Shown: one piece after another, positions 16,120 through 31,501 of the stretch
Layout: every line of letters starts with the position of its first letter
How positions within the stretch are numbered: position 1 is the first letter of the stretch
The notes under the pieces: generated by a model
What the model was told of the DNA's origin: nothing
Seen by the model: only the letters and a program-made list of their open reading frames with translations
The model's database searches: none
Translations under genes and position numbers: made by a program
IMG/VR virus record: IMGVR_UViG_3300020577_010320
DNA length: 64,000 nucleotides
Direction: 5' to 3' (one strand)
Source: a virus

Positions 16120-17388
16120 TCAACTCAGCTTCGGGTAGGACCCCTCGTAGTCGTCCCCGGTGGCGAGGAACGTGTGCTCCTCGATCGGGCCGTACTTAGG
16201 GTCGATGAAGTACACTTCCTGGCCGGGGACCGCCACCTCCCCGAACCGCGCCAGGCCGTGCTCCGTCGTGCCGATCAGCGACCGGTTCACGAACGTCGTC
16301 GTGCCGTTGATCTCGGCCACCAGCCGCCGGTGCCAGTGCCCGAACAGCACGATGTCGAGCGGCATACCGGCCCGCGCGTGCGTCGTCGACATGCAGTTCA
16401 CGCTGTGGACCATCGAGTACCCGATGGTGCCCAACTGCTTGCGGAGCGCGTCGCCGTGGCCCTGGTACACGCGGTACCCGGCGACGTCGTACAGTGAGAA
16501 CAACCCGTCCGCGATGTTGAACTCCACGTTCCTCTGATCGCGGAGCATGTGCTTGGCGAACGTGTAAATGCCCCAGTCGTAGGAGTCGTTCGGGGCCTTC
16601 GGGTCGGGCCCCTTGAGGCGGTCGTTCCGGCGGCCGTGGTTGCCGACGGTGCAGTGGACCCGGACCTTCCGGAACCGGCCGGCCAGGTCGCGGAGCACCT
16701 GCGCGAACAGGCCGCCGCACTCGATCATGGCGTGCATGGGCGTCGCCGCGTCGGTGTGCTTGTGTAGGTCGTGGATGGTGCCGGTGGCGAAGTCGCCGTT
16801 GGCCGCCACTACCAGCTCCGGGTAGGTGAATCGACCGGACGCCTCCAGGTCGTCGATCCGGGCCAGGAACGACTTGACGACCCGGTAGGCGCGGCGGTGC
16901 GTCTCGGCGGCGTCGTAGGAGTTCAGACCCATGACGCGGGCCGAGTCGACCTTCTCGGCGTAGTGCCAGTCGGACAGGTGGAGGATGACGCCGACCTGCT
17001 TGGCGGTCGTGGACGGCCGCCGCGGCGTCACCGTCCGGACCGGCGGGAGGGTGAGGTGCCGGGTGTTCGCCTCGAGTTTCCGCTCGAACCACTCACGGAA
17101 GGCGAGCTCGCGGACCGCGTCCTTCAGCTCCTCCTCGTGTAGCCGCCGCCGGGACTTGTCCAGCTCGGCGGCCACCGGGTCATAGGCCGCCGTTTCCGGC
17201 TGGGTCTTCTTCGCCTCCTGGGCGGCCCTGAGCCGCTCCCTGACGTCCGGCGGCAGGTACTTAGCCACCGTCTTGTGACAGTGACCGAGCTTCTCCGCGA
17301 CGGACTCGACGCACGGGTCCTTGAGGAACTCCTTGATGATGCGAGTACGGGCCTTCTTGTCCAGCGTGTTGTGCGACATGCGTTCCAT
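16120..17388 (-). CDS. calcineurin-like metallophosphoesterase with N-terminal HTH-like region
   Basis: ANGDFATGTIHD ... GNHGRRNDR ... GHWHRR spacing resembles MPP motifs II-III-V; 422 aa. Confidence 0.5.
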   Translation of the reverse strand: MERMSHNTLDKKARTRIIKEFLKDPCVESVAEKLGHCHKTVAKYLPPDVRERLRAAQEAKKTQPETAAYDPVAAELDKSRRRLHEEELKDAVRELAFREWFERKLEANTRHLTLPPVRTVTPRRPSTTAKQVGVILHLSDWHYAEKVDSARVMGLNSYDAAETHRRAYRVVKSFLARIDDLEASGRFTYPELVVAANGDFATGTIHDLHKHTDAATPMHAMIECGGLFAQVLRDLAGRFRKVRVHCTVGNHGRRNDRLKGPDPKAPNDSYDWGIYTFAKHMLRDQRNVEFNIADGLFSLYDVAGYRVYQGHGDALRKQLGTIGYSMVHSVNCMSTTHARAGMPLDIVLFGHWHRRLVAEINGTTTFVNRSLIGTTEHGLARFGEVAVPGQEVYFIDPKYGPIEEHTFLATGDDYEGSYPKLS

Positions 17389-17402
17389 CTACTGTTGTGC
17401 TG

Positions 17403-17735
17403 TTACCGACCGCCGCGGTCCGCCCACGACTGGACGGAGGCCGCGGCTTCCCTGGACGAGTAGACGGAGCGAGACTGTACGGAGTACGGAGTGCGGTAGA
17501 CGACTACGGCCTCCCCGTCGCGCCAGAACTCGACGGCCAGTTCGCGGCCGCCTGGTTCGCCGAAGAGGAAGCAAACACGGGCGTCCGGGCTGACCCGGAC
17601 GCGCCTGACTTCGTGTGGAGTACTCAGACATTGTAGGAAAGCGACTGCGGCCTGCCTACACCGGTCCGAGACGGCGGCCTCGGCCCTGGCGTTGTGGTGG
17701 TCGACCAGTGTGTGGAGTTGGGCTTCGCCGACCAT
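17403..17735 (-). CDS. hypothetical protein
   Basis: 110-aa ORF between phosphoesterase and array block D. Confidence 0.4.
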   Translation of the reverse strand: MVGEAQLHTLVDHHNARAEAAVSDRCRQAAVAFLQCLSTPHEVRRVRVSPDARVCFLFGEPGGRELAVEFWRDGEAVVVYRTPYSVQSRSVYSSREAAASVQSWADRGGR

Positions 17736-17784
17736 GTCGACCTCCGGCGGGGAGGACTATGTTTACTACTTAGCCGGCGGCTCG

Positions 17785-18030
17785 TCAACCGTCCTCGTCG
17801 TAGACGAATAGGTCAAGAAACTTGAACGGAGAACGCCGACCGCCGGGTAGTGAGTCCCAGATCGTGCGGGTCGACAGTTTACGCCCACGCGACGTCCATC
17901 GCGTGCTATCGGCGTACACAAGTTGGTGATCCGGCGGGACTAGGAAGCGTACGACCATGACGACGCTGCGTACCGTACTAGATTGTCGGCGTACGCGATT
18001 CAGGCAGAACGTACCGTCGCAGAGCATCAT
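17785..18030 (-). CDS. tandem-array small protein, LPG...ELFxYDEEG-tail family
   Basis: ends ...WDSLPGGRRSPFKFLDLFVYDEDG*. Confidence 0.6.
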   Translation of the reverse strand: MMLCDGTFCLNRVRRQSSTVRSVVMVVRFLVPPDHQLVYADSTRWTSRGRKLSTRTIWDSLPGGRRSPFKFLDLFVYDEDG

Positions 18031-18266
18031 CCCTCCTCATCGAAGACGAACAACTCAGCGGCGACCCGAGGGCTCCATCCCGGTAAAGCACGGAAGACGT
18101 CGTACGTTTTGCGCCAGACGTCTTCCGGCAACAGACCTATGTTCAGGTCAATGAGCACGCTCTCACACCCACCCGCGCGCGTGTATACCTTGGCGCGGTA
18201 TCGCATTACGCCTGTCTTGTGCTGGAGAGACAGCGAGTCGCGGTACATCTTGAACGCCCGCATCAC
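18027..18266 (-). CDS. tandem-array small protein, LPG...ELFxYDEEG-tail family
   Basis: ends ...FRALPGWSPRVAAELFVFDEEG*; N-term MMRAFKMYRDSLSLQHKTGV similar to 18466..18708. Confidence 0.6.
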   Translation of the reverse strand: MMRAFKMYRDSLSLQHKTGVMRYRAKVYTRAGGCESVLIDLNIGLLPEDVWRKTYDVFRALPGWSPRVAAELFVFDEEG

Positions 18267-18466
18267 CCCTCCTCGTCGTAGGTGAACAACTCGTCCCTGC
18301 GGTAGCTCGGATTCGTGGCGTACCAGGGGCTACCTGGCAGCCGCTGCCAAACGTGTGTAAGGCCCGGTCCCTCACGAGGCAGACACAGATCCACGTCTGA
18401 TAGCCACTGACGCTCCACTACCACTACCGACACGCTCGTGAACCGATACAGCTTAAATCGCCCCAT
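18263..18466 (-). CDS. tandem-array small protein, LPG...ELFxYDEEG-tail family
   Basis: ends ...WQRLPGSPWYATNPSYRRDELFTYDEEG*. Confidence 0.6.
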   Translation of the reverse strand: MGRFKLYRFTSVSVVVVERQWLSDVDLCLPREGPGLTHVWQRLPGSPWYATNPSYRRDELFTYDEEG

Positions 18467-18708
18467 CACCCCTCCTCGTCGTAGACGAACAAGTCGGCGG
18501 CGCTCTGGATCCCCTCCCACCCCGGTAACGAGAGGAACACGTGATTCGTCGCGTGCCACACTCCTCCGGGGAGCAGATCTGCGTTTATGACGACGCGCCC
18601 CCCATCGTGCCGGCCCGTGCACATGTACACCGCGATGAGACTGTATACCCCACCCGTCCCGTACGAGAGGGACAGCGCCTGTCGGTGCATCGTGAACGAC
18701 CGCATCAC
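18466..18708 (-). CDS. tandem-array small protein, LPG...ELFxYDEEG-tail family
   Basis: ends ...FLSLPGWEGIQSAADLFVYDEEG*. Confidence 0.6.
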   Translation of the reverse strand: MMRSFTMHRQALSLSYGTGGVYSLIAVYMCTGRHDGGRVVINADLLPGGVWHATNHVFLSLPGWEGIQSAADLFVYDEEG

Positions 18709-18959
18709 CCCTCCTTATCGTGAGTGTACAATTCCTTCGAGCCGTTTGCGCCCGGTAAAAGGTACCACACCCGCCGCCACGCCGCCGCTTTAAGGTGTAC
18801 TCTTCGCGGGCTCTCTGGGTACGCCGCGAGATACGTGCTGAACGTGACGACGAACTCGCGATTGAACGATTGGTCTGTACTGTAGAGTATTACAATCTGA
18901 TTCGTCCGGACCGTGCATTGTTGCCTGGCGGCTCCTATCGTGAATCGCTGGTCGGACAT
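18705..18959 (-). CDS. tandem-array small protein, LPG...ELFxYDEEG-tail family
   Basis: ends ...WYLLPGANGSKELYTHDKEG*. Confidence 0.6.
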   Translation of the reverse strand: MSDQRFTIGAARQQCTVRTNQIVILYSTDQSFNREFVVTFSTYLAAYPESPRRVHLKAAAWRRVWYLLPGANGSKELYTHDKEG

Positions 18960-19154
18960 TCACCCCTCCTCGTCGTAGGTGAACAGTTCGGCGTCGGCGG
19001 TTACGGCGGAAAACATGAAAGTGGGCGGCATTGGGGCCGGGAGTGACGCCATTACCACACAGTAGGGCGACAAACGTATTGTCCGTGTCGCCCCCCGCCG
19101 CAGCATCACCGTGACGTACGTGTCGGTTTGGGTGCGTTGTCGGTAAAGGTTCAT
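18960..19154 (-). CDS. tandem-array small protein, LPG...ELFxYDEEG-tail family
   Basis: ends ...SAVTADAELFTYDEEG*. Confidence 0.55.
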   Translation of the reverse strand: MNLYRQRTQTDTYVTVMLRRGATRTIRLSPYCVVMASLPAPMPPTFMFSAVTADAELFTYDEEG

Positions 19155-19381
19155 CACCCCTCCCTGTCGAACAAGAATAACGACGCATCCCCGCCCGAGT
19201 CGTGTACCCCGCCGGGGAGGCGCTCCCATATGCGTTGTAACTCCATCAGGCATCCCACAGGGACCACGCCGCGCTTGTCGCAATGGATGTACAGGTTGTG
19301 GCGCACCCTGATCCACTTTCGACCCAACGGGTTATAGCCGCGGCTGCGACTTAAACGCACGGACGCCGTGTACGACATCAC
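19154..19381 (-). CDS. tandem-array small protein, LPG...ELFxYDEEG-tail family
   Basis: ends ...WERLPGGVHDSGGDASLFLFDREG*. Confidence 0.55.
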   Translation of the reverse strand: MMSYTASVRLSRSRGYNPLGRKWIRVRHNLYIHCDKRGVVPVGCLMELQRIWERLPGGVHDSGGDASLFLFDREG

Positions 19382-19554
19382 CCCTCCTCGTCGTAGGTGA
19401 ACAGTTCCTCATCCGGGTGCTTCCAGCCCGCATACCGCCCCGGGAGTTTGATGCCAATGTGGGCCCCGACGATGTTAATGATCGCGATCAGACTCTCGTC
19501 AACGGGGCGGACCAAGTACGCCCACATCAAAACGCGACGCATCCGGAAGGACAT
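19378..19554 (-). CDS. tandem-array small protein, LPG...ELFxYDEEG-tail family (first of block D)
   Basis: ends ...IKLPGRYAGWKHPDEELFTYDEEG*; ATG 19554 with GAGG 5 nt upstream. Confidence 0.55.
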   Translation of the reverse strand: MSFRMRRVLMWAYLVRPVDESLIAIINIVGAHIGIKLPGRYAGWKHPDEELFTYDEEG

Positions 19555-19564
19555 GCTCACCTCA

Positions 19565-19597
19565 GTAAGAAAAGCGGCGGCCCGAGAGGACCGCCGC
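19565..19597 (-). terminator. rho-independent terminator (minus strand)
   Basis: GCGGCGG-loop-CCGCCGC hairpin followed by TTTTCTT on minus strand, just after Thg1-like stop. Confidence 0.55.
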
Positions 19598-19610
19598 GCG
19601 GGTGTGACGA

Positions 19611-20438
19611 CTATGCGCCGACCAGATCGGCCTTGAGCACCGGGTCCTCGCCCTTGAGGAGGACGCCGACCCGGTTCGCGATTGAGTGGAGCTTGGGCAG
19701 GTTCAGCACCTGCACCTTGCTCCGCGTCACCAGCAGGTTGGGGTCCCGGCGGGCGGCGTGCTTCGACGGCAACGCCAGCAGCTCCGCCGCGTTGTACTTC
19801 TCAGTCACGGACCGCACCCCGACGTACGTGCCACGCTTGAAGAACGCGGGGTAGTCGTTCCAGTTGACGCCCATCTGGTGGAGCATCTCCTGCATCTGCG
19901 CGCCGTTCTTGCCCAGCATCTCCGACGGCCGGTAGTACACCCGCGTCGCGCTGGAGATGCTGTTCTTGGTCGCGTCCTGCTCCCGCCACAGGAACGTGTT
20001 GGCGGCCTCGTCGACGTTCGGGACGTTCCACACCCGACAGTCGAAGAACGCCGTCTTGTCCGCCTTCTCGGGGACGAACTCGGCCAGTCGCCGGTTGAAC
20101 TCCCCGGTCAGGAACGACGACAGCAGCGACGTCGTCTTCTGCACCCGTCCGGCGAACTGGGGGACGTTGGTGCGGTTGTCCAAGGTGTACCAGCACAGCG
20201 AGATCTCGTCGCTCTGCGTGTACCCCACGTTAGCGTTGAACGTCTTGACGAGCAGCTTGGTGCAGCAGACCATCAGGTCGTGCAGCCGCTCGTCGTACGG
20301 CTTCTCCAGACCGGCCGTGAACTTCGAGAAGCCCCACCCGTCCAGGCGGGCCATGACCGGAATCCGCGGCGTCATCAGCCGGCGGTCGGCCATCTGCTCG
20401 TACGACTTCATCCGGTCGCCCAGGTCGTCCTTCTGCAT
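19611..20438 (-). CDS. Thg1-like 3'-5' nucleotidyltransferase (tRNA-His guanylyltransferase family / TLP)
   Basis: VMARLDGWGFSKF ... YTQSDEISLCW ... FDCRVW ... GVNWNDYPAFFKRGTYV align with Thg1 RLDGRNFHRF / GQSDEYSFVF / FDGRVV / INYNNELPMYRKGT; start trimmed to MQKDDLGDRMKSYEQ with GGGAGGA SD. Confidence 0.8.
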   Translation of the reverse strand: MQKDDLGDRMKSYEQMADRRLMTPRIPVMARLDGWGFSKFTAGLEKPYDERLHDLMVCCTKLLVKTFNANVGYTQSDEISLCWYTLDNRTNVPQFAGRVQKTTSLLSSFLTGEFNRRLAEFVPEKADKTAFFDCRVWNVPNVDEAANTFLWREQDATKNSISSATRVYYRPSEMLGKNGAQMQEMLHQMGVNWNDYPAFFKRGTYVGVRSVTEKYNAAELLALPSKHAARRDPNLLVTRSKVQVLNLPKLHSIANRVGVLLKGEDPVLKADLVGA

Positions 20439-20458
20439 GTCGGTCCTCCCAGGGTGGA

Positions 20459-20725
20459 TCACTTCTTCAGCCGCTCGATCTCCATCCAGCCGTCGTACCA
20501 CGCGTGGCGGTAAATCGACGATTCGTCGGCGTACGGGTTGGCCGCCGCCGACACGTTGTTGAACCGGGCCGCCATGCCCTCCCGCTTCACGTCCGCGACC
20601 GTGTGGGCGTTCTGTGCGTTAATGTAGATAATCGTGATCAGGGTCGTGAGCACGAGGCCGCCGAACAGGACCAGAACGCAAGTCCCCAAGACGCGGCCGA
20701 CGCGCTCCCAGCGTACGCGGTCCAT
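20459..20725 (-). CDS. small membrane protein
   Basis: 88 aa, TM segment GTCVLVLFGGLVLTTLITIIYI. Confidence 0.45.
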   Translation of the reverse strand: MDRVRWERVGRVLGTCVLVLFGGLVLTTLITIIYINAQNAHTVADVKREGMAARFNNVSAAANPYADESSIYRHAWYDGWMEIERLKK

Positions 20726-20726
20726 A

Positions 20727-20963
20727 CTAGTGCCTCTCCTGTTTATAGTCAGACAGAGCCTGTCTGCCCCCTGTGTGCTCCGACAGGTAGCGTACGCGCG
20801 CCACGTAGAGCAGGCCGGCGTATACCAGGACGACGAACACCGTGAACGCCAGGCCGATGAGGCAGCTGGCGTTACGGACGACCCAACCGTTGGCCTGCGG
20901 TAACATCCTCACTCCTCTTATCAGACGTACCCCCAGTCGGCCCCGTACACGCTCGACGCCCAT
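20727..20963 (-). CDS. small membrane protein
   Basis: 78 aa, TM segment CLIGLAFTVFVVLVYAGLLYVA. Confidence 0.45.
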   Translation of the reverse strand: MGVERVRGRLGVRLIRGVRMLPQANGWVVRNASCLIGLAFTVFVVLVYAGLLYVARVRYLSEHTGGRQALSDYKQERH

Positions 20964-21277
20964 TCGTCCGTCGCGCCGGCCGCGTTGGAGGGCGTGTAGG
21001 ACTGGAGCACCTCGGCCGGCTCGAACTCGGCCAGGATACCCTCACGCTCCGCCTTGCCCTTGGCGCAGATCGCGCGGAAGAGGCGCCGGATCCCCGTCTC
21101 AGCGGCCTCCCGCGTCTTGTACTGGTAGCTCGTGTCAAGGACGACGCGCGTCTCATCGCCCTTGACGAACGCGTAGCCGGCCCACCCGGCCGACTTGTCC
21201 GTCCCCTGCCCGCCGACGTACTCGAAGCCGTCGACGCCGGTCTGCCGGATGAACGCCTGCGTACTCTCGCTGATCAT
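20921..21277 (-). CDS. hypothetical protein
   Basis: 118-aa ORF. Confidence 0.4.
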   Translation of the reverse strand: MISESTQAFIRQTGVDGFEYVGGQGTDKSAGWAGYAFVKGDETRVVLDTSYQYKTREAAETGIRRLFRAICAKGKAEREGILAEFEPAEVLQSYTPSNAAGATDEWASSVYGADWGYV

Positions 21278-21291
21278 CGCTTAGCCCTCAA

Positions 21292-21516
21292 TCATTTGGG
21301 GTTAGGGAACATCTTCTCCCACTGGCCGACGCCGGCCCATGTGGGCGTCCAGAAGTCGACGAGCCATTCCGGCGACTTAAGTTGACTCTCCACGAGTCGC
21401 TGACGATCGTATTCGGCCTCCGCCGCGTACCAAATGGGCTTGTCCCGGCCTGACGGGCGTCCAAGATGGAGCCACATGCGTCGCGCGATGTCGGACACCG
21501 CCTCGTGTCTGTCCAC
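21292..21516 (-). CDS. hypothetical protein
   Basis: 74-aa ORF, Trp-rich. Confidence 0.4.
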   Translation of the reverse strand: MDRHEAVSDIARRMWLHLGRPSGRDKPIWYAAEAEYDRQRLVESQLKSPEWLVDFWTPTWAGVGQWEKMFPNPK

Positions 21517-21603
21517 GTTACAGGACCTCCTCCAGCGACACCAACCCTACGCCCTCGCGGTACCGGGTTAGGTAAAACCGACTGACGATACGCCGGGTGG
21601 ACA

Positions 21604-21825
21604 TCACCCCTCCTCGTCTTGCACGAACAACGCCGTGTGGTCCGGCAACCGCACGTACCACATGTTGAAATAGTCAGAATTACTTGACGCGTGGTTGTCG
21701 TCCCACCCCGGATACTGTACAGCGCTCATCAATGATGTTGCGTCGATTTCGACGTAGAACTCGCCAGCCTTGAAGCCCTTGTGCTCGCTAGGATCGCACA
21801 TACGCCGAAGCCTGGTAACCACTGT
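21604..21825 (-). CDS. tandem-array small protein, LPG...ELFxYDEEG-tail family
   Basis: ends ...WYVRLPDHTALFVQDEEG*. Confidence 0.55.
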   Translation of the reverse strand, partial: TVVTRLRRMCDPSEHKGFKAGEFYVEIDATSLMSAVQYPGWDDNHASSNSDYFNMWYVRLPDHTALFVQDEEG

Positions 21826-22250
21826 CAGCCCTCCTCGTCCAGGACGAACAACTCGGCTTGGCCTTTGTTGCCGGGCAACGCCGACCAGACGGCGAGGGAC
21901 TGCGAGTCGGCCGTCCACCCGTTCGACGGCCCGAACCGCCGCAGCCGCGTCGGGAACACGCCTAAATACCGAATGTGACAACTGCAGTGATTGGGGTCAC
22001 GCCAGTCGGGCACGTCGCAGTGGTCTCCCAGTCGACCCACCACCTCGACGACGATCGCCGGCGCGTAACTCACACGACCTATGTTGACCCGGAACGGGTT
22101 GTCCGGCCCCAGAGACACGTGCGCGTTGAGACGCAGCCGTCGAACCGCGCGTGTGGCGCACGGGCACGCCTCGTCGAGCAGGCCGGCGTACCGGTCAAAC
22201 GTCGTCGCCCAGACCCAGAGGTCCTTCAACCAGGTTAGTAATCGCATCAC
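21825..22250 (-). CDS. tandem-array small protein, LPG...ELFxYDEEG-tail family
   Basis: 141 aa, ends ...WSALPGNKGQAELFVLDEEG*. Confidence 0.6.
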   Translation of the reverse strand: MMRLLTWLKDLWVWATTFDRYAGLLDEACPCATRAVRRLRLNAHVSLGPDNPFRVNIGRVSYAPAIVVEVVGRLGDHCDVPDWRDPNHCSCHIRYLGVFPTRLRRFGPSNGWTADSQSLAVWSALPGNKGQAELFVLDEEG

Positions 22251-25146: not shown

Positions 25147-25412
25147 CCCTCTTCATCGTGAACGAACAGGCCGACGTCGCCAGGCAGAGACAACCACACC
25201 CGCCGGAGCTCCCACACCGCCAGCGTCGGCTTGACGCGAGAAGCGTAAAGATGAGGAAACCCGACGGACGCACAGAGACCGAAGCCCCGACCTGCAGCTT
25301 GATGTAAGCTGACGTCGAATGCGAACGGCCCGCGGCCTTGTATCGCGGTTCGGTTGAAGCGGCGGTAGAACCCGGACAGACCGCGTCTTAGCCTTATAAT
25401 ATGACACGACAT
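25143..25412 (-). CDS. tandem-array small protein, LPG...ELFxYDEEG-tail family
   Basis: ends ...WLSLPGDVGLFVHDEEG*. Confidence 0.6.
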   Translation of the reverse strand: MSCHIIRLRRGLSGFYRRFNRTAIQGRGPFAFDVSLHQAAGRGFGLCASVGFPHLYASRVKPTLAVWELRRVWLSLPGDVGLFVHDEEG

Positions 25413-25415
25413 GGG

Positions 25416-25646
25416 TCACCCCTCCCCGTCCCAGACGAACAGAGTTTTGCCGTTCGGCAGTTTGTTGATGTAGGCGTCGTGCGTCAGCAACCGGAATCTG
25501 TGCCTCCGGCCGCCCTCGTACATCGTCCCGAACCGGGAGAACGCGACGAACGCTGGTGCGGGGCCGTTCGCGAAGTCGTCGATCACGAGGACCCGAAACT
25601 CATACAGGTCACGCTCACGCGCCATGAGGTAGATCACGGCGGTCAC
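25416..25646 (-). CDS. tandem-array small protein, LPG...ELFxYDEEG-tail family
   Basis: ends ...YINKLPNGKTLFVWDGEG*. Confidence 0.6.
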   Translation of the reverse strand: MTAVIYLMARERDLYEFRVLVIDDFANGPAPAFVAFSRFGTMYEGGRRHRFRLLTHDAYINKLPNGKTLFVWDGEG

Positions 25647-25845
25647 CCCTCCTCATCGTAGGTGAACAGGTCGTCGAAGTTGGGCAGCTCGTCGAACAAG
25701 TAGCCGCGGGGGGCTTTCGTCAGGCCGCCGTTTGCGTACGGTAGTGGTGTGACGCGGACACACCACACACAACCCCAACCAGTCATAACGCCGGGCCAGC
25801 TACCGAACCAGAACCGATTCGGCCGCAATCCTAAGTGGGCGGTCA
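25643..25845 (-). CDS. tandem-array small protein, LPG...ELFxYDEEG-tail family (first of block E)
   Basis: MTAHLGLRPNRFWFG...LFDELPNFDDLFTYDEEG*; start ATG 25845 preceded by vestigial unit-end CTGTTCATACGAGGAGGGTCGGTATGA. Confidence 0.6.
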
Positions 25846-25869
25846 TACCGACCCTCCTCGTATGAACAG

Positions 25870-25900
25870 CTAAAAACAACCCGAGCCGTAGGCGCTCGGG
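25870..25900 (-). terminator. rho-independent terminator (minus strand) downstream of tRNA
   Basis: CCCGAGC-gcctacg-GCTCGGG hairpin followed by TTGTTTTTAGCT on minus strand. Confidence 0.55.
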
Positions 25901-25906
25901 CGTGAG

Positions 25907-25991
25907 TGGCGGTGCGGGCAGGAGTCGAACCTGCACGCCTGTCGGGGCGGGCCCTGAACACGGGCCTGTGTCTACACTTCACCACCGCACC
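25907..25991 (-). tRNA. tRNA gene with encoded CCA, long (type II-like) variable arm; anticodon tentatively GUU (Asn) but loop atypical
   Basis: minus strand: GGTGCGG acceptor / CCGCACC-G-CCA 3' end; T-arm GCAGG-TTCGACT-CCTGC; anticodon stem GGCCC/GGGCC with loop GUGUUCA; 15-nt variable region CGCCCCGACAGGCGU; 3-bp D stem. Confidence 0.7.
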
Positions 25992-25998
25992 GTGGTCG

Positions 25999-28635
25999 TC
26001 AGCCGACGTCCAGCGACGTCGAGTACTCGATCGTCTCCGACATGACGGTCAGCACCATCCCGTCGGCCGCCACGTAGTACGTGGCCTCGTCGGCCGCCTT
26101 GGTCTGGGCGGCCAGCTCCGGGTACTGCGTCGTCAGGTCGTCGTGGGTCAGGCCCGGCACGTCGAACTTGGCCGGCGTCATGCCGGACGCGCCCGTCGTG
26201 AACACGTACGGCTGGACCGACGTCCGGTACAGGTCGTCGAACTGGTCGGCCACGAGACGGGCCGCCTGGTCGATCGCGGACTGGGCCTCGGAGGCGTCCT
26301 CGCAGGCCGAGTACCCGCACCCGAGCACGCTGACCAGCTCGTGGGCCCCGAGCGTGGTCAGCGTGCTGGACGTGTCCCGGAGCAGCTTCTTCTCGCCCAT
26401 GAGCTGCATGAACGTGCTCACGACGACCGTCGCCAGGGCCGTGTCCGACTCGTGCCTGGCGCTCACCGCGACCTTGCTCTTCCCGCCCGTGACCCCCTCG
26501 AACCAGCCCCGCAGGGTGGTCTCCTTGGTCGGGACGGGCTTCTTGTCGACGGTGAGCGAGAAGTACTTCCGGAACAGCTCGTTCCCGGACGGCAGGTCCA
26601 GGGACGCGACGTCCACCGTCCCGATCGAGATCACGTACCCCTTGCGGAAGTCGATCAGCCCGCGCTGGACGAAATCCTGGTACGCCGGGTTGTCCTTCTT
26701 CAGCCGGACGCCCTTCGGGGCGGGCGGGTACGGGTTGGCCGACGGCGCGCTGAAGTACCCGGCCGGCGTCAGGTTCCACGCCTTGTACGCCTCCTTGGCT
26801 TCCGGGGACAGGTTGTCGGGGTCGCCGCTCTTGAGGGCGTTGAGGAACTTCATCATGACCGCCAGAGACAGCAGACGGTCGAACATGTGGCGGGTGACGC
26901 CGTGACTACCCGAGTCGTCCACGGTCACCACCGGCCGGTTTTCGAAGGAGACGACGTACGTCTCGCCGGCGAAGAAGCCGTCTTTGCCGTCCGCCTTCGT
27001 CACCGCCCCGATCCGCCGCAGGGCGTTGTACATGGGTTGGGTGTTGATCCGGATCGGCAGGCGCGGCGTGCAGACCCTGCCGTCGCCCACCAGCGTGAAC
27101 TGACGGTACGTCTGCAGCTTGGGCGCCGGCACGCCGCCCAGGTCGTCGCCGTACTTCAGGGTCTTCCCGGTGACGATGTTCTCCAGGACGACGTCCTGCA
27201 CCACCCGGAGGTTGACGGTCGCCGTGTTGCGGTTCGTCTCGAACGCCGTCGGCTTGGCCAGCTGGCCGGAGAGCGCGACGGCGCGGACCGGGTTGGGCTC
27301 GAACGTCGCCTCGCCGGCGTCGTCGACCACCCACTTCCCCTGCCGGCTCTTGAGGCCGCGGCGTTGGTACGCCTGGTACACCTCGGCCGGGTCGACGAGG
27401 AAGTCGCCCATGTGGCGCTTGAGCGTGTTGATCACGCCCATCACGGACACGCGGTCGTCCTCGCCGGCCGGGGCGTACTCGCGGCCGGTCAGGTCGCCGG
27501 CGATCAGCAGGGCGTCGAGCTCGGCGGCGAACGCGCCCAGGTCCTCCTGGTCCAGGGCGTCGCGGTACCGCTTGACCAGGGCGACGTCCTCGGAGGCGAG
27601 GAGCGCCGTCTTGGCCACGTTCAGGCGGCCGGCGGCCAGGGCGGCGCGGGCCAGGGCGTACGCCGCCTTGCCGCGCTGGGCCGCCGGGAACGCGGACTTG
27701 TCGTACTCGGCCTCGTCCGTGAACTTGAACTGGTACACCGTCGCTTCGCCCGGGGCGAGGGCCGGCACCAGCAGGTCGGCCTGCCCGCACGCGACCCGCT
27801 TGGACTGCGAGCCGGTCACCACCTGGCAGTTGAACCCCTTGGGCAGCGGGAACAGCTGGGCCGGCTCCGAGCACGTCTCCCGCAGCTTCGCCGCCGACGC
27901 GTACATGGCGTTGTACACCTCGGCCAGCGTGCCGCTCTTGACGGCCGTCCCGCCGCCGGTCGTCGCCAGGGTGCCGAGCAGGCGGACGTCGCCCCACCCG
28001 TGACAGACGGTGTTCAGGTACGCGTTCTTCTCGGCGAGGGACGCGGCGAGCCGGGTCAGCTTCCGCTCCTCGGAGGCGGACGACGGGTCGTTGAAGTACC
28101 CGTCCGTGTGCAGGACGATGCAGGTCGTCTCGTCCGGGTCGAGCGCGTCGACCGCGGCCTCCAGGGCCTGCGACGCGCAGGTCATGCACGACGCCGTGAT
28201 GCGGTCGATCGCCCGCTGCTCGGCGGAGTTGCGGGCGTTCACCTGGGAGATCGGGCTCCGGATGAACTCCTCCCGGCAGTCGCCCTGGCTGCTGTACGTG
28301 TACAGGCTGACCTTGAAGTTCGCGTCCTGCTTGTACTCGTCCACCGCCAGCAGCTTCTTGATCTCCGCCCTCATGCCCTCGATCTGGCCGTACATCGACC
28401 CCGAGCGGTCGACGATCAGGACCAGGTGGGCGACCTTGGTCTGGACCGGCGCCTCGGCCACCGCCGGCACGGCGACCTCGAACGCGTTACAGAGCACGTA
28501 CTGCAGCGCGTCGCCGTTCTGGCTGTACGTCCGGAACTTCACCGACCGCGGCACGCCGCCGGTCCTCTCCACCGCCGTCCGGTCGCCGGTCTTCGTCTTG
28601 GTGACCGGAGCCTTCGCCGTCTTCGTCTTAGCCAT
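25999..28635 (-). CDS. large von Willebrand factor A (VWA) domain protein
   Basis: LVLIVDRSGSMYG (MIDAS DxSxS) ... TCIVLHTDGYFND; start trimmed to MAKTKTAKAP (ATG 28633-28635) with AAGGGGA SD; ~878 aa. Confidence 0.7.
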   Translation of the reverse strand: MAKTKTAKAPVTKTKTGDRTAVERTGGVPRSVKFRTYSQNGDALQYVLCNAFEVAVPAVAEAPVQTKVAHLVLIVDRSGSMYGQIEGMRAEIKKLLAVDEYKQDANFKVSLYTYSSQGDCREEFIRSPISQVNARNSAEQRAIDRITASCMTCASQALEAAVDALDPDETTCIVLHTDGYFNDPSSASEERKLTRLAASLAEKNAYLNTVCHGWGDVRLLGTLATTGGGTAVKSGTLAEVYNAMYASAAKLRETCSEPAQLFPLPKGFNCQVVTGSQSKRVACGQADLLVPALAPGEATVYQFKFTDEAEYDKSAFPAAQRGKAAYALARAALAAGRLNVAKTALLASEDVALVKRYRDALDQEDLGAFAAELDALLIAGDLTGREYAPAGEDDRVSVMGVINTLKRHMGDFLVDPAEVYQAYQRRGLKSRQGKWVVDDAGEATFEPNPVRAVALSGQLAKPTAFETNRNTATVNLRVVQDVVLENIVTGKTLKYGDDLGGVPAPKLQTYRQFTLVGDGRVCTPRLPIRINTQPMYNALRRIGAVTKADGKDGFFAGETYVVSFENRPVVTVDDSGSHGVTRHMFDRLLSLAVMMKFLNALKSGDPDNLSPEAKEAYKAWNLTPAGYFSAPSANPYPPAPKGVRLKKDNPAYQDFVQRGLIDFRKGYVISIGTVDVASLDLPSGNELFRKYFSLTVDKKPVPTKETTLRGWFEGVTGGKSKVAVSARHESDTALATVVVSTFMQLMGEKKLLRDTSSTLTTLGAHELVSVLGCGYSACEDASEAQSAIDQAARLVADQFDDLYRTSVQPYVFTTGASGMTPAKFDVPGLTHDDLTTQYPELAAQTKAADEATYYVAADGMVLTVMSETIEYSTSLDVG

Positions 28636-28711
28636 GACACATCCCCTTAGTGTGCGTCGGTCGGCAACGGCGCCTCTCGACAAGTGATAGTGACACGATG
28701 CGCGGCAGAAT

Positions 28712-28957
28712 TCAGCCACCCAGGTGGGCGTACTCGTCGACGTCCAGGACGAACAGGGTTTCGTCGCGCGGGAACCCTGTGTAATTGATGTCCGCGCGCC
28801 ACCGGGTGTCAAGGGGCTGGTACTTAGGCAAGTTGCTCACCACCCTGAACACCCACCTCGGCGGACAGCCGAGGACGCCACACGAAATGTCACCCTCTAA
28901 GCCGCAGGCGCACCCCATGCGGCGGTACACCTCCATGAACCACTTCGGCTTCGACAT
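28712..28957 (-). CDS. tandem-array small protein, degenerate/extended tail
   Basis: ...RDETLFVLDVDEYAHLGG*; start MSKPKW overlapping upstream TGA. Confidence 0.45.
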   Translation of the reverse strand: MSKPKWFMEVYRRMGCACGLEGDISCGVLGCPPRWVFRVVSNLPKYQPLDTRWRADINYTGFPRDETLFVLDVDEYAHLGG

Positions 28958-29183
28958 CAGCCCTCCTCGTCGTAGGTGAACAGCGTAGTCCCGTTCGGTA
29001 ACAAACTGGAGTACACGCCGTTGACCAGGTCGTACCACGTTGTCGCGTAGGTCTCCGGTTTCACCTGTATCTCCGACAGGTCCGCATAAGCGCTGCCGTC
29101 AGTGGCGTACAGATATACCGACATGTAAGCTCTGAGATTTGTGGCTCTACACATGCGGTACTGCGTTGCCTTACGTAGCACGT
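28957..29183 (-). CDS. tandem-array small protein, LPG...ELFxYDEEG-tail family
   Basis: ends ...SSLLPNGTTLFTYDEEG*; identical 15-aa tail to next gene. Confidence 0.6.
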
Positions 29184-29446
29184 CAGCCCTCCTCGTCGTA
29201 GGTGAACAGCGTAGTCCCGTTCGGTAACAGGTGCGAACCCTTACGTCGGCGACCGCGGTCGTTGTAAGACCAGACGTATCGCCCTGGCTCCAGTCGCAAC
29301 CTGACACTTCGCCAGACGCCGTCATAGGCATAGCGTGTGTGTACTTCGCACGCGTTGGCACAGCTCCTGTTGTGCGTCTTGGCCCGCGATACCACGACCG
29401 TTTTACGGCTAGAGAGCGTCGTCCCACGATCCACAGACGTCGTCAT
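29183..29446 (-). CDS. tandem-array small protein, LPG...ELFxYDEEG-tail family
   Basis: ends ...SHLLPNGTTLFTYDEEG*. Confidence 0.6.
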   Translation of the reverse strand: MTTSVDRGTTLSSRKTVVVSRAKTHNRSCANACEVHTRYAYDGVWRSVRLRLEPGRYVWSYNDRGRRRKGSHLLPNGTTLFTYDEEG

Positions 29447-29447
29447 G

Positions 29448-29669
29448 TCAGCCCTCCGCGTCGAGCACGAACAGTTCGCTCAGGCACCCGTCGTCCGCCA
29501 CCTGGCGCGGCAGGCGTTGCAGGATCCGCTTGTACCGCTTGCTACCGCTCTTACCGGCCCCGCGTTGCTTTATCTCCGCCCAGCCGCCGTACTTGTACTC
29601 GACGTACACGCACGGCGGGTTCTTGCGAGTGTCACGAAACACGTCGGTAGTATGACGCTTACCACTCAT
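29448..29669 (-). CDS. tandem-array small protein, LPG...ELFxYDEEG-tail family
   Basis: ends ...LQRLPRQVADDGCLSELFVLDAEG*. Confidence 0.55.
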   Translation of the reverse strand: MSGKRHTTDVFRDTRKNPPCVYVEYKYGGWAEIKQRGAGKSGSKRYKRILQRLPRQVADDGCLSELFVLDAEG

Positions 29670-30048
29670 GTTCCAACCTCGCGGCCTCGGGGATGATGGC
29701 GGGCGTCTCCGCGAACTCGGCGGTGTCGCATACGAACAATTCCTGGCGGTTCGGCAGGAGGTCCCAGACCTGCCAAAAGTCCTTGGGCTTCCCCTTGAGT
29801 CGCTTCGCCTCGGCCTTGGAGATCCCCCACCGGCGGTTCTTAGGTTCGCGCATGGTGGGCGGCGCGAGTACGTAAGCGGCGTCGATGAATGACGCCATAC
29901 ATATCATCCCAGGATGACCACTGTACTCGGTCAGGTAGGACACCTCGACCATCGCCACCTCCCGCGTGCGCGCGTTCTCGTCGGCGAGCATCGGCCGCTT
30001 GGCAAACCGCCGCGCCTCGATGTACCGGCACTCCCGCACAGATTCCAT
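29659..30048 (-). CDS. family member with internal tail motif and C-terminal extension
   Basis: ...WQVWDLLPNRQELFVCDTAEFAETPAIIPEAARLEHEW*; motif internal, no DEEG stop. Confidence 0.5.
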   Translation of the reverse strand: MESVRECRYIEARRFAKRPMLADENARTREVAMVEVSYLTEYSGHPGMICMASFIDAAYVLAPPTMREPKNRRWGISKAEAKRLKGKPKDFWQVWDLLPNRQELFVCDTAEFAETPAIIPEAARLEHEW

Positions 30049-30065
30049 GAGACCCCTCCGTGACG

Positions 30066-30098
30066 CGTAAAGAAACGCGGTGCGACGGGCACCGCGTT
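30066..30098 (-). terminator. rho-independent terminator (minus strand)
   Basis: CGCGGTGC-gacgg-GCACCGCG hairpin followed by TTTCTTT on minus strand. Confidence 0.55.
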
Positions 30099-30108
30099 GT
30101 GACTCACT

Positions 30109-30249
30109 TCTGCATCTCCACCTTGAGCGACGCGCTCATCGGGGTGGGGGCCACGCCCGCGTAGTGGGCGTGGACGACGACTTTCTGGTAGCTGCAGCCG
30201 GCGCAGCTGACGATGGTGGACAGGGCGAAGGCGCGCAGGGCGTTCATGG
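30109..30249 (-). CDS. possible small lipoprotein (46 aa) not in ORF track
   Basis: MNALRAFALSTIVSCAGCSYQK... signal peptide plus lipobox-like IVSC; sits between RNA ligase and terminator. Confidence 0.3.
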
Positions 30250-30313
30250 GTCTAGTCCGTGACCAGGTAGTGTGGTTCCGTCCACAACATGGTGACAGCC
30301 CTGACCGCCCTAT

Positions 30314-31501
30314 TTACCGCCGCTTCGCGACCTTCATGGTCATGTACTCGGGCGAGATCAGCTTCAGGATCACGCGCCCGTACCGGGGGTTGTGGGTCTC
30401 GATCGTTGGCCGGATCACCAGGCCCTCGCAGACCGTCCCGGCGGCGCACCCGGGGGCCGCGGACTTCCGGTCGCTCATCGCCTCCAGCTGGGCGAAGTCG
30501 AACGGCACGTCCTCGGCGATCAGAGGGGCGGTCGGCACGCCGGCCCGGGTCAGCAGGTTGTACGCCTCCGACCCGTTCAGGAACCGACCGTCCGTGTACA
30601 CGTCGAACGCCGCGAACTTGTTGCCGTCCGGGAACCCGTACTTGACCTGGTGGGTGTTACCGTACACCTCCCCGTACACCGTCGTGCCGGGGTTGGCGGC
30701 CAGGAACGTCCACAGCTCCGTCTGCTTCTCGAAGAACTCCCAGATGCCCGCGACGCGGCCCTTCTTCTTCTCGATCTCCGCCAGCACCCGGTTGACCCCG
30801 TCGACGTTCGGGGTGCCGTCCTGGAGCTTCATATTCGCCTCCAGGTACTCGCGGGTGACGTGGTCGTAGTTGGGGTTGCGGCGGACCCAGCAGTTGCGGG
30901 ACTTGACCCAGTACCGACCGTCGTGGAAGACGACGCGATAGTTGGACCCGTCCAGCTTCTCCTGGACGAACACCGGCGTGCCCGCGTCGATCAGCGTCAT
31001 GTTGCTGCGGAGGGCGTCGACGTCGTAGTAGTCGGGCCCGGTCAAGAGGTCCGGGCCCGGCTCGTGCTCGCCTCCGATCGTGAACCCGCGTTTCTTGTGG
31101 CCGCCGGCCGTGGGGTCGTCGGCGTCGTACCGCTTCACACCCAGCCGCTCGGCCCAGTCCTCACCCACGACCGCGTCGGCCGGGGCGGGGACCAGCAGGC
31201 CGTAGCTGACGTACTTCTTCAGAAACTTGCGGGCGCGGATCCGGGCCAGGCCGTCGGAGTCGGCCTGCGGGGCCAGGAAGCCGAACTCGGGTCGGGTCGT
31301 GTCGACCACGCTGTCGGGGACGACGTACACGGCCTTGTCGACGCCGGCCCAGTCCTCGGTCCGGACGACGCAGGTGTACCCACCCACGCGGACCAGCGAC
31401 AGTGCGTCGGCGTCCTCGATCTTGGTCATCTCGAACGGCACCACCAGCGCCTGGTGGGTCGTCTTCTTGTTCAACAGCATCGGTGTGGCGGTCTCGGACA
31501 T
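30314..31501 (-). CDS. ATP-dependent RNA ligase-like nucleotidyltransferase
   Basis: motif I FVQEKLDGSNYRVVF (KxDGxN as in Rnl2/Rnl3-type ligases); 395 aa. Confidence 0.55.
   Translation of the reverse strand: MSETATPMLLNKKTTHQALVVPFEMTKIEDADALSLVRVGGYTCVVRTEDWAGVDKAVYVVPDSVVDTTRPEFGFLAPQADSDGLARIRARKFLKKYVSYGLLVPAPADAVVGEDWAERLGVKRYDADDPTAGGHKKRGFTIGGEHEPGPDLLTGPDYYDVDALRSNMTLIDAGTPVFVQEKLDGSNYRVVFHDGRYWVKSRNCWVRRNPNYDHVTREYLEANMKLQDGTPNVDGVNRVLAEIEKKKGRVAGIWEFFEKQTELWTFLAANPGTTVYGEVYGNTHQVKYGFPDGNKFAAFDVYTDGRFLNGSEAYNLLTRAGVPTAPLIAEDVPFDFAQLEAMSDRKSAAPGCAAGTVCEGLVIRPTIETHNPRYGRVILKLISPEYMTMKVAKRR

What the first reader, a model, noticed from the sequence alone, without database searches (positions are those of the whole stretch)
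16120..31501. tRNA end-repair toolkit: Thg1-like enzyme, RNA ligase and phosphoesterase
A Thg1-like 3'-5' polymerase (19611-20438), a KxDGxN nucleotidyltransferase of the RNA-ligase type (30314-31501) and a metallophosphoesterase (16120-17388) lie in the same region, plus a tRNA gene. Together they resemble repair systems that viruses use against host anticodon/tRNA nucleases, and Thg1-like proteins repair tRNA 5' ends.
Basis: partly seen in the sequence, partly recalled or inferred. Interest (0 to 1): 0.65.

Follow-up and report, generated by a model that had tools for sequence, protein, structure and literature searches.

The report
Phage Thg1-like enzyme and RNA ligase
A large high-GC phage carries a reverse (3'-5') RNA polymerase of the Thg1-like type and a nick-sealing RNA ligase, the kind of RNA/tRNA-maintenance genes already described in jumbo phages. 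The nearby metallophosphoesterase looks like a DNA nuclease and does not belong with them.

Summary
All three ORFs are real, intact and correctly typed at domain level.

- **19611-20438(-):** a bacterial-type Thg1-like protein (TLP). Pfam Thg1 scores 1.9e-30 and the best solved relative is BtTLP.
- **30314-31501(-):** an Rnl5 (DraRnl/NgrRnl) nick-sealing RNA ligase, with an N-terminal OB domain plus an NTase domain. The top 13 Foldseek hits are all NgrRnl.
- **16120-17388(-):** an HTH-fused metallophosphoesterase. Its fold is closest to the PolD DP1 proofreading exonuclease and to Mre11/SbcD.

The MPE family sits in DNA replication, recombination or packaging contexts elsewhere. It is never near a TLP or an RNA ligase in 240 viral loci.

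In the window the three genes are 2.2-9.9 kb apart. Terminator-like hairpins separate the ligase from the TLP, and the TLP from the MPE. No polynucleotide kinase, Rnl1, or small MPE of the kind linked to TLP/ligase genes elsewhere was found in the 64 kb. This is therefore not a three-enzyme operon.

The TLP-ligase pairing does have comparative support. In 13 of 80 TLP-centred viral loci an RNA ligase of this Pfam family (PF09414; Rnl5 two-domain architecture in 6 of 10 checked) lies on the same strand within about 6 kb, and in 10 of them within 2.1 kb. Both gene families sit in tRNA-rich regions.

RNA-repair gene sets that include sporadic Thg1 are already described for jumbo phages (Iyer et al. 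2021).

The parts
19611..20438 (-). Thg1-like protein (TLP), 275 aa, bacterial-type 3'-5' nucleotidyltransferase
   Evidence: Pfam Thg1 1.9e-30. Best solved relative is 4kgk BtTLP at 4e-37, against 1e-11 to 1e-13 for eukaryote-type Thg1. D33, D77 and E78 are invariant in 27 homologues. 'ATKNSIS' replaces the eukaryotic HINNLYN motif (PMC6471195).
19574..19597 (-). Terminator-like hairpin directly after the TLP stop codon
   Evidence: 10-bp stem with 9 GC pairs and a T-rich tail.
30314..31501 (-). Rnl5-family (DraRnl/NgrRnl-type) ATP-dependent nick-sealing RNA ligase, 395 aa
   Evidence: PF21189 OB domain (25-105) plus PF09414 NTase (176-381), with no C-terminal domain. TIGR02306 RNA_lig_DRB0094 matches full length at 62.7 bits, below the equivalog cutoff. 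The best PDB sequence hits are NgrRnl. The AF2 model has pLDDT 89.9 and its top 13 Foldseek hits are NgrRnl at about E 1e-18, versus 1e-7 for T4 Rnl2. Motif residues: K182, E278, F299-D300 and E359-G360 invariant, K380 nearly invariant.
31544..31564 (-). Terminator-like hairpin between the SPFH gene and the ligase start
   Evidence: 7-bp all-GC stem with a T-rich tail.
16120..17388 (-). HTH plus long helix plus metallophosphoesterase, 422 aa; DP1/Mre11-like nuclease-type MPE; not part of the RNA set
25907..25991 (-). Atypical tRNA-like gene (ARAGORN Asn-GTT): long variable arm, encoded CCA
   Evidence: Below the Rfam gathering score.
25879..25901 (-). Terminator-like hairpin after the tRNA-like gene; separates the ligase unit from the TLP unit
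   Evidence: 8-bp stem with a T-rich tail.

Best explanation
The window is part of a large, high-GC phage genome that encodes its own multisubunit-type RNA polymerase. It is one long block of co-directional genes, most of them small. Two of the three flagged genes are RNA-end enzymes of the sort that big phages carry for RNA/tRNA maintenance.

(1) The TLP. By analogy with characterised bacterial and archaeal TLPs, it activates a 5'-monophosphate RNA end and adds Watson-Crick-templated nucleotides in the 3'-5' direction. This rebuilds 5'-truncated tRNA acceptor stems, or restores G-1 on tRNA-His.

(2) The Rnl5 ligase. By analogy with DraRnl and NgrRnl, it seals 3'-OH/5'-PO4 nicks in base-paired nucleic acid whose 3'-OH strand is RNA, for example nicks in tRNA stems.

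Here the two are separately transcribed and 9.9 kb apart, and they probably act as independent members of a dispersed repertoire rather than as an operon.

The third gene is a DNA-directed nuclease-type MPE, DP1/Mre11-like with an N-terminal HTH, and belongs to DNA metabolism.

Shown here: family and fold assignments, intact catalytic motifs, gene order, terminator-like hairpins, and neighbourhood statistics in other viral contigs. Inferred: the substrates (tRNA) and the activities.
For: Family assignments come, and catalytic residues.

TLP neighbourhoods: 26 of 80 TLP-centred IMG/VR loci have tRNA genes within 10 kb (165 tRNAs, 161 on the same strand). The closest relatives (L001, L019-L021) have the TLP inside large tRNA arrays.

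Ligase neighbourhoods: 40 of 80 Rnl5-centred loci have tRNAs within 10 kb. The figure is 7 of 80 for MPE-centred loci, with about 20-fold lower tRNA density.

TLP-ligase linkage: 13 of 80 TLP loci carry a PF09414 ligase on the same strand, 10 of them within 2.1 kb. GC content ranges from 0.28 to 0.65 and only two pairs are close relatives. The binomial P is about 3e-5 against uniform placement within 10 kb.

Some of these clusters also hold an Rnl1 ligase, a kinase-Rnl1 fusion, or a small MPE (L086, L090, L026).

Published work already lists RNA ligases, kinases, phosphoesterases, CCA-adding enzyme and sporadic Thg1 as jumbo-phage RNA-repair genes (PMC7824862). TLP 5'-end repair biochemistry is in PMC3061083 and PMC6471195; Rnl5 nick-sealing is in PMC4408790.

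MPE exclusion rests.
Against: In this window the TLP and ligase are 9.9 kb apart, with a strong terminator-like hairpin at 25901-25879 between them.

The reciprocal test found no TLP within 10 kb of the 80 viral loci whose ligases are most similar to this one.

No kinase or 3'-phosphatase is present in the 64 kb, so ends left by metal-independent anticodon nucleases could not be processed by window genes alone.

The physiological role of Rnl5 is unknown, and genetics in Deinococcus points to radiation/DNA-damage tolerance (PMC5397189).

The tRNA-proximity control (MPE loci) comes mostly from smaller phages, so it is imperfect. tRNA arrays and accessory genes may simply share 'early' regions.

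Neither tRNA-like gene in the window has a mismatched or truncated 5' acceptor strand that would call for a TLP.
Confidence: 0.55

Rival explanations
1. The TLP, ligase and MPE form one coordinated tRNA end-repair pathway against host anticodon/tRNA nucleases: the MPE heals 2',3'-cyclic-phosphate ends, the ligase reseals the break, and the TLP rebuilds 5' ends.
For: All three have intact active sites. MPE domains do heal RNA 3' ends in bacterial Pnkp (from my own knowledge, not tested here). In a few other viral contigs a small MPE sits beside an RNA ligase and a TLP (L026, L086, L090).
Against: The window MPE belongs to a different family from those small MPEs: the small-MPE HMM does not hit it even at E<=1. 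Its fold is closest to DP1 and Mre11/SbcD. Relatives sit next to DNA polymerases, SSB, RecE/RusA, terminase and portal genes. None of 80 MPE loci has a TLP, ligase or kinase, and none of 160 TLP or ligase loci has this MPE. There is no 5' kinase in the window. Rnl5 enzymes are feeble on single-stranded RNA ends (PMC4408790). The genes lie in separate transcription units.
Confidence: 0.06
2. The three genes are functionally unrelated accessory genes that happen to share a gene-dense region. The TLP only maintains G-1 on tRNA-His. The Rnl5 ligase works on DNA: RNA-primed or ribonucleotide-patched nicks during replication or repair. The MPE is a DNA nuclease.
For: Loss of DraRnl sensitises Deinococcus to ionising radiation (PMC5397189). 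In cultured phages that have both genes (CcrColossus, BcepSauron) they lie about 80-130 kb apart. None of the 80 closest ligase loci has a TLP. L029 has a tRNA-His gene directly upstream of its TLP, and in a 630-kb phage a HisRS-like gene lies about 7 kb from the TLP.
Against: Only 3 of the 165 tRNAs near TLP genes are tRNA-His, and two of the three have a genome-encoded G-1. Same-strand ligase-TLP adjacency recurs in at least 11 unrelated viral lineages. Half of the Rnl5 loci lie in tRNA clusters.
Confidence: 0.27
3. The TLP and Rnl5 form a dedicated two-step repair pathway for base-paired parts of tRNA. The TLP fills a gap in the 3'-5' direction using the opposite strand as template, removes pyrophosphate, and Rnl5 seals the remaining nick. 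This would be an RNA analogue of gap-filling plus ligation.
For: Operon-like adjacency in other viral contigs: a 2-nt gap in L035, 52 nt in L095, and abutting genes in L041 and L091. Both enzymes need duplex context and 5'-phosphate chemistry (PMC6471195, PMC4408790).
Against: No biochemical precedent was found in the literature searched. In this window the genes are not adjacent. Most TLP loci (67 of 80) have no ligase nearby.
Confidence: 0.12

Closest known systems
Bacterial Thg1-like proteins (e.g. Bacillus thuringiensis TLP, PDB 4kgk)
   Same: Same catalytic domain and the same invariant carboxylates (D33, D77, E78). Aligns over 211 residues at E 4e-37. Lacks the eukaryotic HINNLYN anticodon-recognition motif.
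   Different: Phage-encoded. Carries a conserved C-terminal extension of about 60 aa, shared with its metagenomic, viral and Planctomycetes relatives (invariant P224, P248, N255), that lies beyond the stretch aligned with BtTLP. The nearest cellular homologues are about 55% identical and planctomycete.
Rnl5 nick-sealing RNA ligases (Deinococcus DraRnl / Naegleria NgrRnl, PDB 5cot)
   Same: The signature architecture: an N-terminal OB-like domain plus an NTase domain, with no C-terminal module. Motifs I, III, IIIa, IV and V are present. The predicted fold matches NgrRnl over its full length.
   Different: About 21% identity to NgrRnl. Scores below the TIGR02306 equivalog cutoff (62.7 vs 151 bits). 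Has a linker of about 45 residues (roughly 125-170), the core of which (130-139) is modelled with low confidence. Phage relatives are frequently embedded in tRNA gene clusters, a context not reported for cellular Rnl5 in the papers read.
Jumbo-phage RNA-repair repertoires (Iyer et al. 2021, PMC7824862) and the T4 Pnkp/Rnl1 system
   Same: Phage-encoded RNA-end enzymes accompanying phage tRNA genes. Thg1 is explicitly listed there as a sporadic component.
   Different: The window has no Rnl1, Rnl2, RtcB, kinase, HAD/2H phosphoesterase, RlaP or CCA-adding enzyme. Its ligase is Rnl5, a family that paper does not name in the passages read; it names Rnl1, Rnl2 and 'rare divergent versions'.
PolD small subunit DP1 / Mre11-SbcD nuclease MPEs
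   Different: Has an N-terminal HTH and a long helix instead of OB/PDE partner domains. No adjacent SbcC/Rad50 or PolD large subunit. Only 14% identity to DP1.

Membership tests
Thg1 superfamily, TLP clade | Thg1 catalytic domain above the curated threshold | tested here: met
   PF04446 scores 105.9 bits against a cutoff of 29.2.
Thg1 superfamily, TLP clade | Metal-binding carboxylates (equivalents of hThg1 D29, D76, E77) | tested here: met
   D33, D77 and E78 are present and invariant in 27 sequences.
Thg1 superfamily, TLP clade | Closer to TLPs than to eukaryote-type Thg1; HINNLYN motif absent | tested here: met
   BtTLP 4e-37 versus Thg1 chains at 1e-11 to 1e-13. 'ATKNSIS' aligns where Thg1 has 'HINNLYN' (motif described in PMC6471195).
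Thg1 superfamily, TLP clade | Templated 3'-5' nucleotide addition on 5'-truncated tRNA | not testable with these tools
   Needs an enzyme assay.
Rnl5 RNA ligases | Covalent nucleotidyltransferase motifs I, III, IIIa, IV, V | tested here: met
   K182-LDGSN, G-E278, F296-AAFD, E359-GLVIR, L-K380-LI. K182, E278, F299, D300, E359 and G360 are invariant in 32 sequences; K380 is nearly invariant.
Rnl5 RNA ligases | Signature domain order: N-terminal OB-like domain, then NTase, with no C-terminal domain | tested here: met
   PF21189 at 25-105 and PF09414 at 176-381 of 395 aa. Foldseek gives full-length matches to NgrRnl with target-normalised TM 0.61-0.71.
Rnl5 RNA ligases | NCBIfam TIGR02306 (DRB0094) equivalog score | tested here: not met
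   62.7 bits against a cutoff of 151.15, although aligned end to end. This makes it a divergent family member, not an equivalog.
Rnl5 RNA ligases | Seals duplex nicks that have an RNA 3'-OH strand | not testable with these tools
   Needs an enzyme assay.
T4-type / Pnkp-type tRNA break repair system | Loop-break ligase (Rnl1, Rnl4 or RtcB) | tested here: not met
   The Rnl1 HMM has no hit in the six-frame ORFs of the window. The ligase fold matches Rnl1/Trl1 only at E 1e-4, against 1e-18 for Rnl5.
T4-type / Pnkp-type tRNA break repair system | 5'-OH polynucleotide kinase | tested here: not met
   No AAA_33/PNK-like hit in the window. No kinase among the Pfam/PHROG hits to window proteins or among precomputed Pfam hits for the gene stretches covered by short contigs of this phage. 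The rest of the genome is unseen.
T4-type / Pnkp-type tRNA break repair system | 2',3'-cyclic phosphodiesterase or 3'-phosphatase end-healing enzyme | tested here: inconclusive
Mre11/SbcD/DP1-type MPE nucleases | Complete MPE metal-ligand motifs and closest fold among nuclease-type MPEs | tested here: met
Mre11/SbcD/DP1-type MPE nucleases | Adjacent partner (SbcC/Rad50 ATPase or PolD catalytic subunit) | tested here: not met
   The neighbours are small ORFs with no hits. This is resemblance in fold, not membership of those complexes.

The most novel reading that the evidence does not exclude
Phage Thg1-like proteins and Rnl5 ligases form a coupled pathway that repairs damage in the double-stranded parts of tRNAs. 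The TLP fills in the missing 5' strand in the reverse direction and Rnl5 seals the final nick. This would give both enzyme families, whose physiological roles in bacteria are still uncharted, a defined job in countering host nucleases that attack tRNA stems.
Probability: 0.12. Interest if true: 0.7.

Novelty: new member of a known kind. Interest (0 to 1): 0.35.

Why it matters
Neither bacterial-type TLPs nor Rnl5 ligases have an established physiological role. The Rnl5 papers call the function 'uncharted' (PMC5397189), and the TLP review (PMC6471195) never mentions viruses or ligases.

The window itself adds one more divergent phage example, of a kind already catalogued for jumbo phages. The by-product is more useful. 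PF09414 (largely Rnl5-architecture) ligase genes and TLP genes are recurrent same-strand neighbours in at least 11 unrelated viral lineages, and both families sit in tRNA-rich regions. That gives a concrete, testable hypothesis about substrates.

Cultured phages that encode both enzymes (for example CcrColossus and BcepSauron) could be used to test it.

The work also removes a tempting mis-annotation: the HTH-MPE is a DNA-type nuclease, not an RNA end-healing enzyme.

Tried and rejected
- Megablast of 16 kb against INPHARED found no match, so no annotated close relative could be used.
- Single-protein scans of IMG/VR found only one TLP relative and no ligase relative; alignments were needed.
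- The look-up of encoding contigs returned mostly short Logan contigs for this phage (under 5 kb for the TLP and MPE; only the ligase look-up reached a 74-kb contig), so the rest of its genome could not be inspected for kinase or phosphatase genes.
- Alignment A1 was too divergent to seed a locus scan, so a tighter alignment (A4) was used.
- I considered that the 937-aa VWA protein plus the adjacent tRNA-like RNA might be a Ro/Y-RNA-like module coupled to the ligase. Rejected for now: no TROVE domain, the VWA lies near the N-terminus, and no VWA homologue sits near ligases in 80 other loci.
- I considered that the TLP serves 5'-editing of mismatched phage tRNAs. Both tRNA-like genes in the window have perfectly paired acceptor stems.
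- I considered a tRNA-His-specific role. Only 3 of 165 TLP-linked tRNAs are His, and two of those three encode G-1.
- I considered a phiKZ-like identity. The RNAP is closest (28%) to Vibrio phage D69 and Salmonella phage Arash, not to phiKZ-like phages.
- Burroughs & Aravind 2016 (NAR 44:8525) is not held in the library, so I could not check whether TLP-ligase linkage is already noted there.


Full report
**Context.** The window has about 63% G+C and nearly every ORF with coding-type GC3 lies on the minus strand, so it is one long co-directional block. It carries large RNA-polymerase beta/beta'-like genes at 59037-63410 and 55257-57140. The nearest relatives of these, at 28% identity, are in Vibrio phage D69 and Salmonella phage Arash. 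It also has a dCTP deaminase and many small ORFs with no hits. Megablast finds nothing in 50,697 phage records. The exact proteins are on record in metagenome assemblies, on contigs up to about 77 kb. This is a fragment of a large, uncultured, high-GC phage.

**Checking the observation.** All three ORFs are real and correctly typed.
- 19611-20438(-) matches Pfam Thg1 at 1.9e-30 and phrog_4717 at 6e-75.
- 30314-31501(-) matches Pfam RNA_ligase (3.6e-19) plus the PHA02142 OB domain (1.3e-9).
- 16120-17388(-) only just passes Pfam Metallophos (21.7 vs 21.5 bits). It matches phrog_284 'exonuclease' at 1e-37 and belongs to a family with 3,309 representative clusters. In that family D140, G198-D199, N250-H251, H311 and H353 are invariant, and H142 and H351 are at least 90% conserved.
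- ARAGORN calls a tRNA at 25907-25991(-). Rfam finds nothing at gathering score. In a local search the best match is tRNA-Sec at 21.6 bits.

**The TLP.** Its best solved relative is the Bacillus thuringiensis Thg1-like protein 4kgk (E 4e-37 over 211 residues). Eukaryote-type Thg1 chains score 1e-11 to 1e-13. The catalytic carboxylates D33, D77 and E78 are present and invariant among 27 homologues. The eukaryote-specific HINNLYN motif is replaced by ATKNSIS (motif role per PMC6471195). It is therefore a bacterial-type TLP. These enzymes repair 5'-truncated tRNAs in vitro by templated 3'-5' addition (PMC3061083, PMC6471195). Homologues are abundant: 6,469 clusters at E<=1e-10. They include huge phages (L005, a 630-kb contig where the TLP lies among aminoacyl-tRNA synthetase genes) and Planctomycetes chromosomes (L006). 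In the phage collection, 164 records carry one, mostly jumbo phages where it is already annotated as tRNA-His guanylyltransferase.

**The ligase.** The best sequence hits in the PDB are all Naegleria gruberi RNA ligase. NCBIfam TIGR02306 (the DRB0094/DraRnl family) aligns end to end, but at 62.7 bits it is below the equivalog cutoff of 151. JGI names the homologues 'RNA ligase (TIGR02306 family)'. An AlphaFold model (pLDDT 89.9) gives NgrRnl as its top 13 Foldseek hits at about E 1e-18. By comparison, T4 Rnl2 scores 1e-7, Rnl3 1e-5, Rnl1/Trl1 1e-4 and DNA ligases 1e-3. Motifs I, III, IIIa, IV and V are intact. It is an Rnl5 ligase, not a DNA ligase. Rnl5 enzymes seal 3'-OH/5'-PO4 nicks in duplexes whose 3'-OH strand is RNA and are feeble on single-stranded RNA. 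Rnl1 and Rnl4 are the loop-break tRNA repair ligases (PMC4408790). The physiological role of Rnl5 is described as uncharted (PMC5397189).

Annotated phage relatives sit in DNA contexts:
- beside exonuclease VIII and RusA in cyanophage S-CBS1;
- between an SSB/annealing protein, an HNH endonuclease, a DNA polymerase and a helicase in Bacteroides phage BU1-1;
- between ribonucleotide reductase and DNA Pol III alpha in Myxococcus phage Mx1.

In 80 MPE-centred IMG/VR loci the recurrent neighbours are an amidase, large terminase, portal and SSB. None of those loci has a TLP, RNA ligase or kinase, and only 7 have any tRNA.

**Arrangement in the window.** The MPE-TLP gap is 2.2 kb and the TLP-ligase gap is 9.9 kb, with about 25 small ORFs between the latter pair. 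There are strong terminator-like hairpins on the coding strand:
- directly after the TLP (19597-19574);
- directly after the tRNA-like gene (25901-25879);
- just upstream of the ligase (31564-31544).

The ligase and the TLP therefore lie in different predicted transcription units. HMMs for Rnl1, PNK-like kinase and small MPEs, built from other viral loci, find nothing in a six-frame ORF set of the whole window. Pfam/PHROG scans of the larger window proteins, together with precomputed Pfam hits for the short contigs of this phage that cover parts of the region, add only SPFH, PspA-like, VWA, dCTP deaminase and a papain-like peptidase.

**Is there any link between the TLP and the ligase?** I tested this in IMG/VR.

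Among 80 TLP-centred loci with 10-kb flanks, iterated HMM searches gave the following:
- A PF09414 ligase in 13 loci, always on the TLP strand.
- Gaps to the TLP ranged from 2 nt to 6 kb, and 10 were within 2.1 kb.

Six of ten tested ligases show the OB+NTase architecture of Rnl5. The loci span GC 0.28-0.65, and only two pairs are close relatives. If ligases were placed uniformly within 10 kb, 10 of 13 within 2.1 kb has P about 3e-5.

Some clusters add further RNA-end enzymes:
- L090 has a small MPE, Rnl1, TLP and Rnl5.
- L086 has a small MPE, a ligase, a TLP and a kinase-Rnl1 fusion.
- L026 has Rnl5, then a small MPE directly before the TLP.

The reciprocal test is negative: none of the 80 viral loci with ligases closest to this one has a TLP within 10 kb. 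In cultured phages with both genes (CcrColossus, BcepSauron) they are far apart.

Both families lie in tRNA-rich DNA. tRNAs occur within 10 kb in 26 of 80 TLP loci and 40 of 80 ligase loci, at about 0.1-0.17 tRNA per kb. For MPE loci the figures are 7 of 80 and about 0.007 per kb. That control is imperfect because MPE loci come mostly from smaller phages. The TLP association is with tRNA arrays in general. Only 3 of 165 linked tRNAs are tRNA-His, and two of those three have a genome-encoded G-1.

**Interpretation.** The best-supported reading is that the TLP and the Rnl5 ligase are independent members of a dispersed phage RNA/tRNA-maintenance repertoire. The MPE is a DNA-directed nuclease unrelated to them. 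The window holds no end-healing enzymes, so it cannot by itself reverse classic anticodon-nuclease damage (2',3'-cyclic phosphate and 5'-OH ends). Mechanistically, the TLP would rebuild 5'-truncated acceptor stems and Rnl5 would seal nicks in base-paired RNA. Both statements are inferences from characterised homologues.

A tighter coupling is not excluded. In that model the TLP fills gaps in the reverse direction and Rnl5 then seals the nick. The operon-like pairs in other contigs hint at this, but the window itself gives no support.

**Comparison with what is known.** Iyer et al. 2021 (PMC7824862) already describe jumbo-phage RNA-repair gene sets. These include RtcB, Rnl1, Rnl2, kinases, phosphoesterases, RlaP and CCA-adding enzyme, with Thg1 'sporadically present'. 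The finding is therefore a new member of a known kind. As far as the held literature shows, two things are new: the Rnl5 identity of the ligase, and the recurrent Rnl5-TLP-tRNA-array neighbourhoods. I could not check Burroughs & Aravind 2016.

**Verdict.** Interest is moderate to low.

Noticed in passing
window 25907-25991 (-); also L001:12873-13058, L071:14048-14133, L021, L049, L077, L115, L142, L148, L167, L168: The window's 'tRNA-Asn(GTT)' is 85 nt with a long variable arm, a 3-bp D stem, a perfect 7-bp acceptor stem and an encoded CCA. It falls below the Rfam tRNA thresholds (best match tRNA-Sec, 21.6 bits). Similar long-variable-arm tRNAs of 82-96 nt, with Asn, Cys, Thr, Val, Met or Ile anticodons, recur in the tRNA arrays next to TLP and Rnl5 genes in other viral contigs. 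Their amino-acid identity is unclear.
   Followed up: partly
window 58931-59000 (-), flanks 59040-58905: A 70-nt tRNA-Met(CAT)-like gene with a weak D arm and a G-U-rich anticodon stem. It is preceded by TTGACG-17-TAGTAT and followed by a hairpin (CAACCCACC...GGTGGGTTG) plus a T-rich tail. It looks like its own small transcription unit between the RNAP gene and a plus-strand ORF. Rfam does not detect it at gathering score.
   Followed up: partly
window 25999-28812 (-) together with 30314-31501 and 25907-25991: By terminator-like hairpins, the Rnl5 ligase, two small ORFs, a large VWA-domain protein (the ORF is 937 aa; the likely start is M60) and the tRNA-like gene form one predicted transcription unit. 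This loosely recalls Ro(vWA)/Y-RNA/ligase operons. However, there is no TROVE domain, and no VWA homologue lies near ligases in 80 other loci.
   Followed up: partly
window 31577-32419 (-) and 32484-33209 (-): An SPFH/Band-7 protein (Pfam 1.4e-30) and a PspA/IM30-like protein (weak hit) are encoded directly upstream of the ligase. These membrane-stress or scaffold-type genes are unusual in a phage. The pair is conserved in the Logan contigs of the same phage.
   Followed up: no
window 59037-63410 (-), 55257-57140 (-): A 1,457-aa RNA-polymerase beta/beta'-like protein and a second 627-aa RNAP-like protein. The nearest phage relatives (28% identity) are Vibrio phages D69/D181/D148 and Salmonella phage Arash, not phiKZ-like phages. 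Those Vibrio phages also encode a TLP.
   Followed up: partly
window 16120-17388 (-); L178-L257: The MPE family has an N-terminal HTH and a long helix ahead of a DP1-like nuclease domain. In many viral contigs it lies between or near the large terminase, portal, amidase and SSB genes. This raises the possibility of a role in DNA end processing or packaging rather than only in replication.
   Followed up: partly
L035:4509-10710 and L041:8836-14241: A conserved cluster in two related low-GC viral contigs: Rnl5 ligase, then TLP (gap 2 nt in L035), then a tRNA with a CUA anticodon (called 'Pyl' by ARAGORN, a possible amber suppressor), then nicotinate phosphoribosyltransferase, then NAD synthase.
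   Followed up: partly
L086:7309-12460, L090:7224-12916, L026:7514-10828: Compact viral RNA-end-enzyme clusters centred on a TLP. L086 has a small MPE, a ligase, a TLP and a kinase(AAA_33)-Rnl1 fusion. L090 has a small MPE, Rnl1, TLP and Rnl5. L026 has Rnl5 and then a small MPE directly before the TLP.
   Followed up: partly
L006 (GCA_016849885.1 contig JAESFG010000060.1) and P0117: The closest cellular homologues of the phage TLP (about 55-57% identity) appear to be planctomycete: one hit carries the source name 'Planctomycetaceae bacterium', and another sits on a 482-kb contig beside PSCyt1/PSCyt2/PSD1 and DUF1501 genes. This may hint at the host range or at the source of the gene.
   Followed up: no
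window 35804-37276 (-), 39594-40286 (-), 6831-7352 (-): Other auxiliary genes in the window: a papain-like Peptidase_C1 protein, a dCTP deaminase, and a 5'-3' deoxyribonucleotidase-like protein.
   Followed up: no
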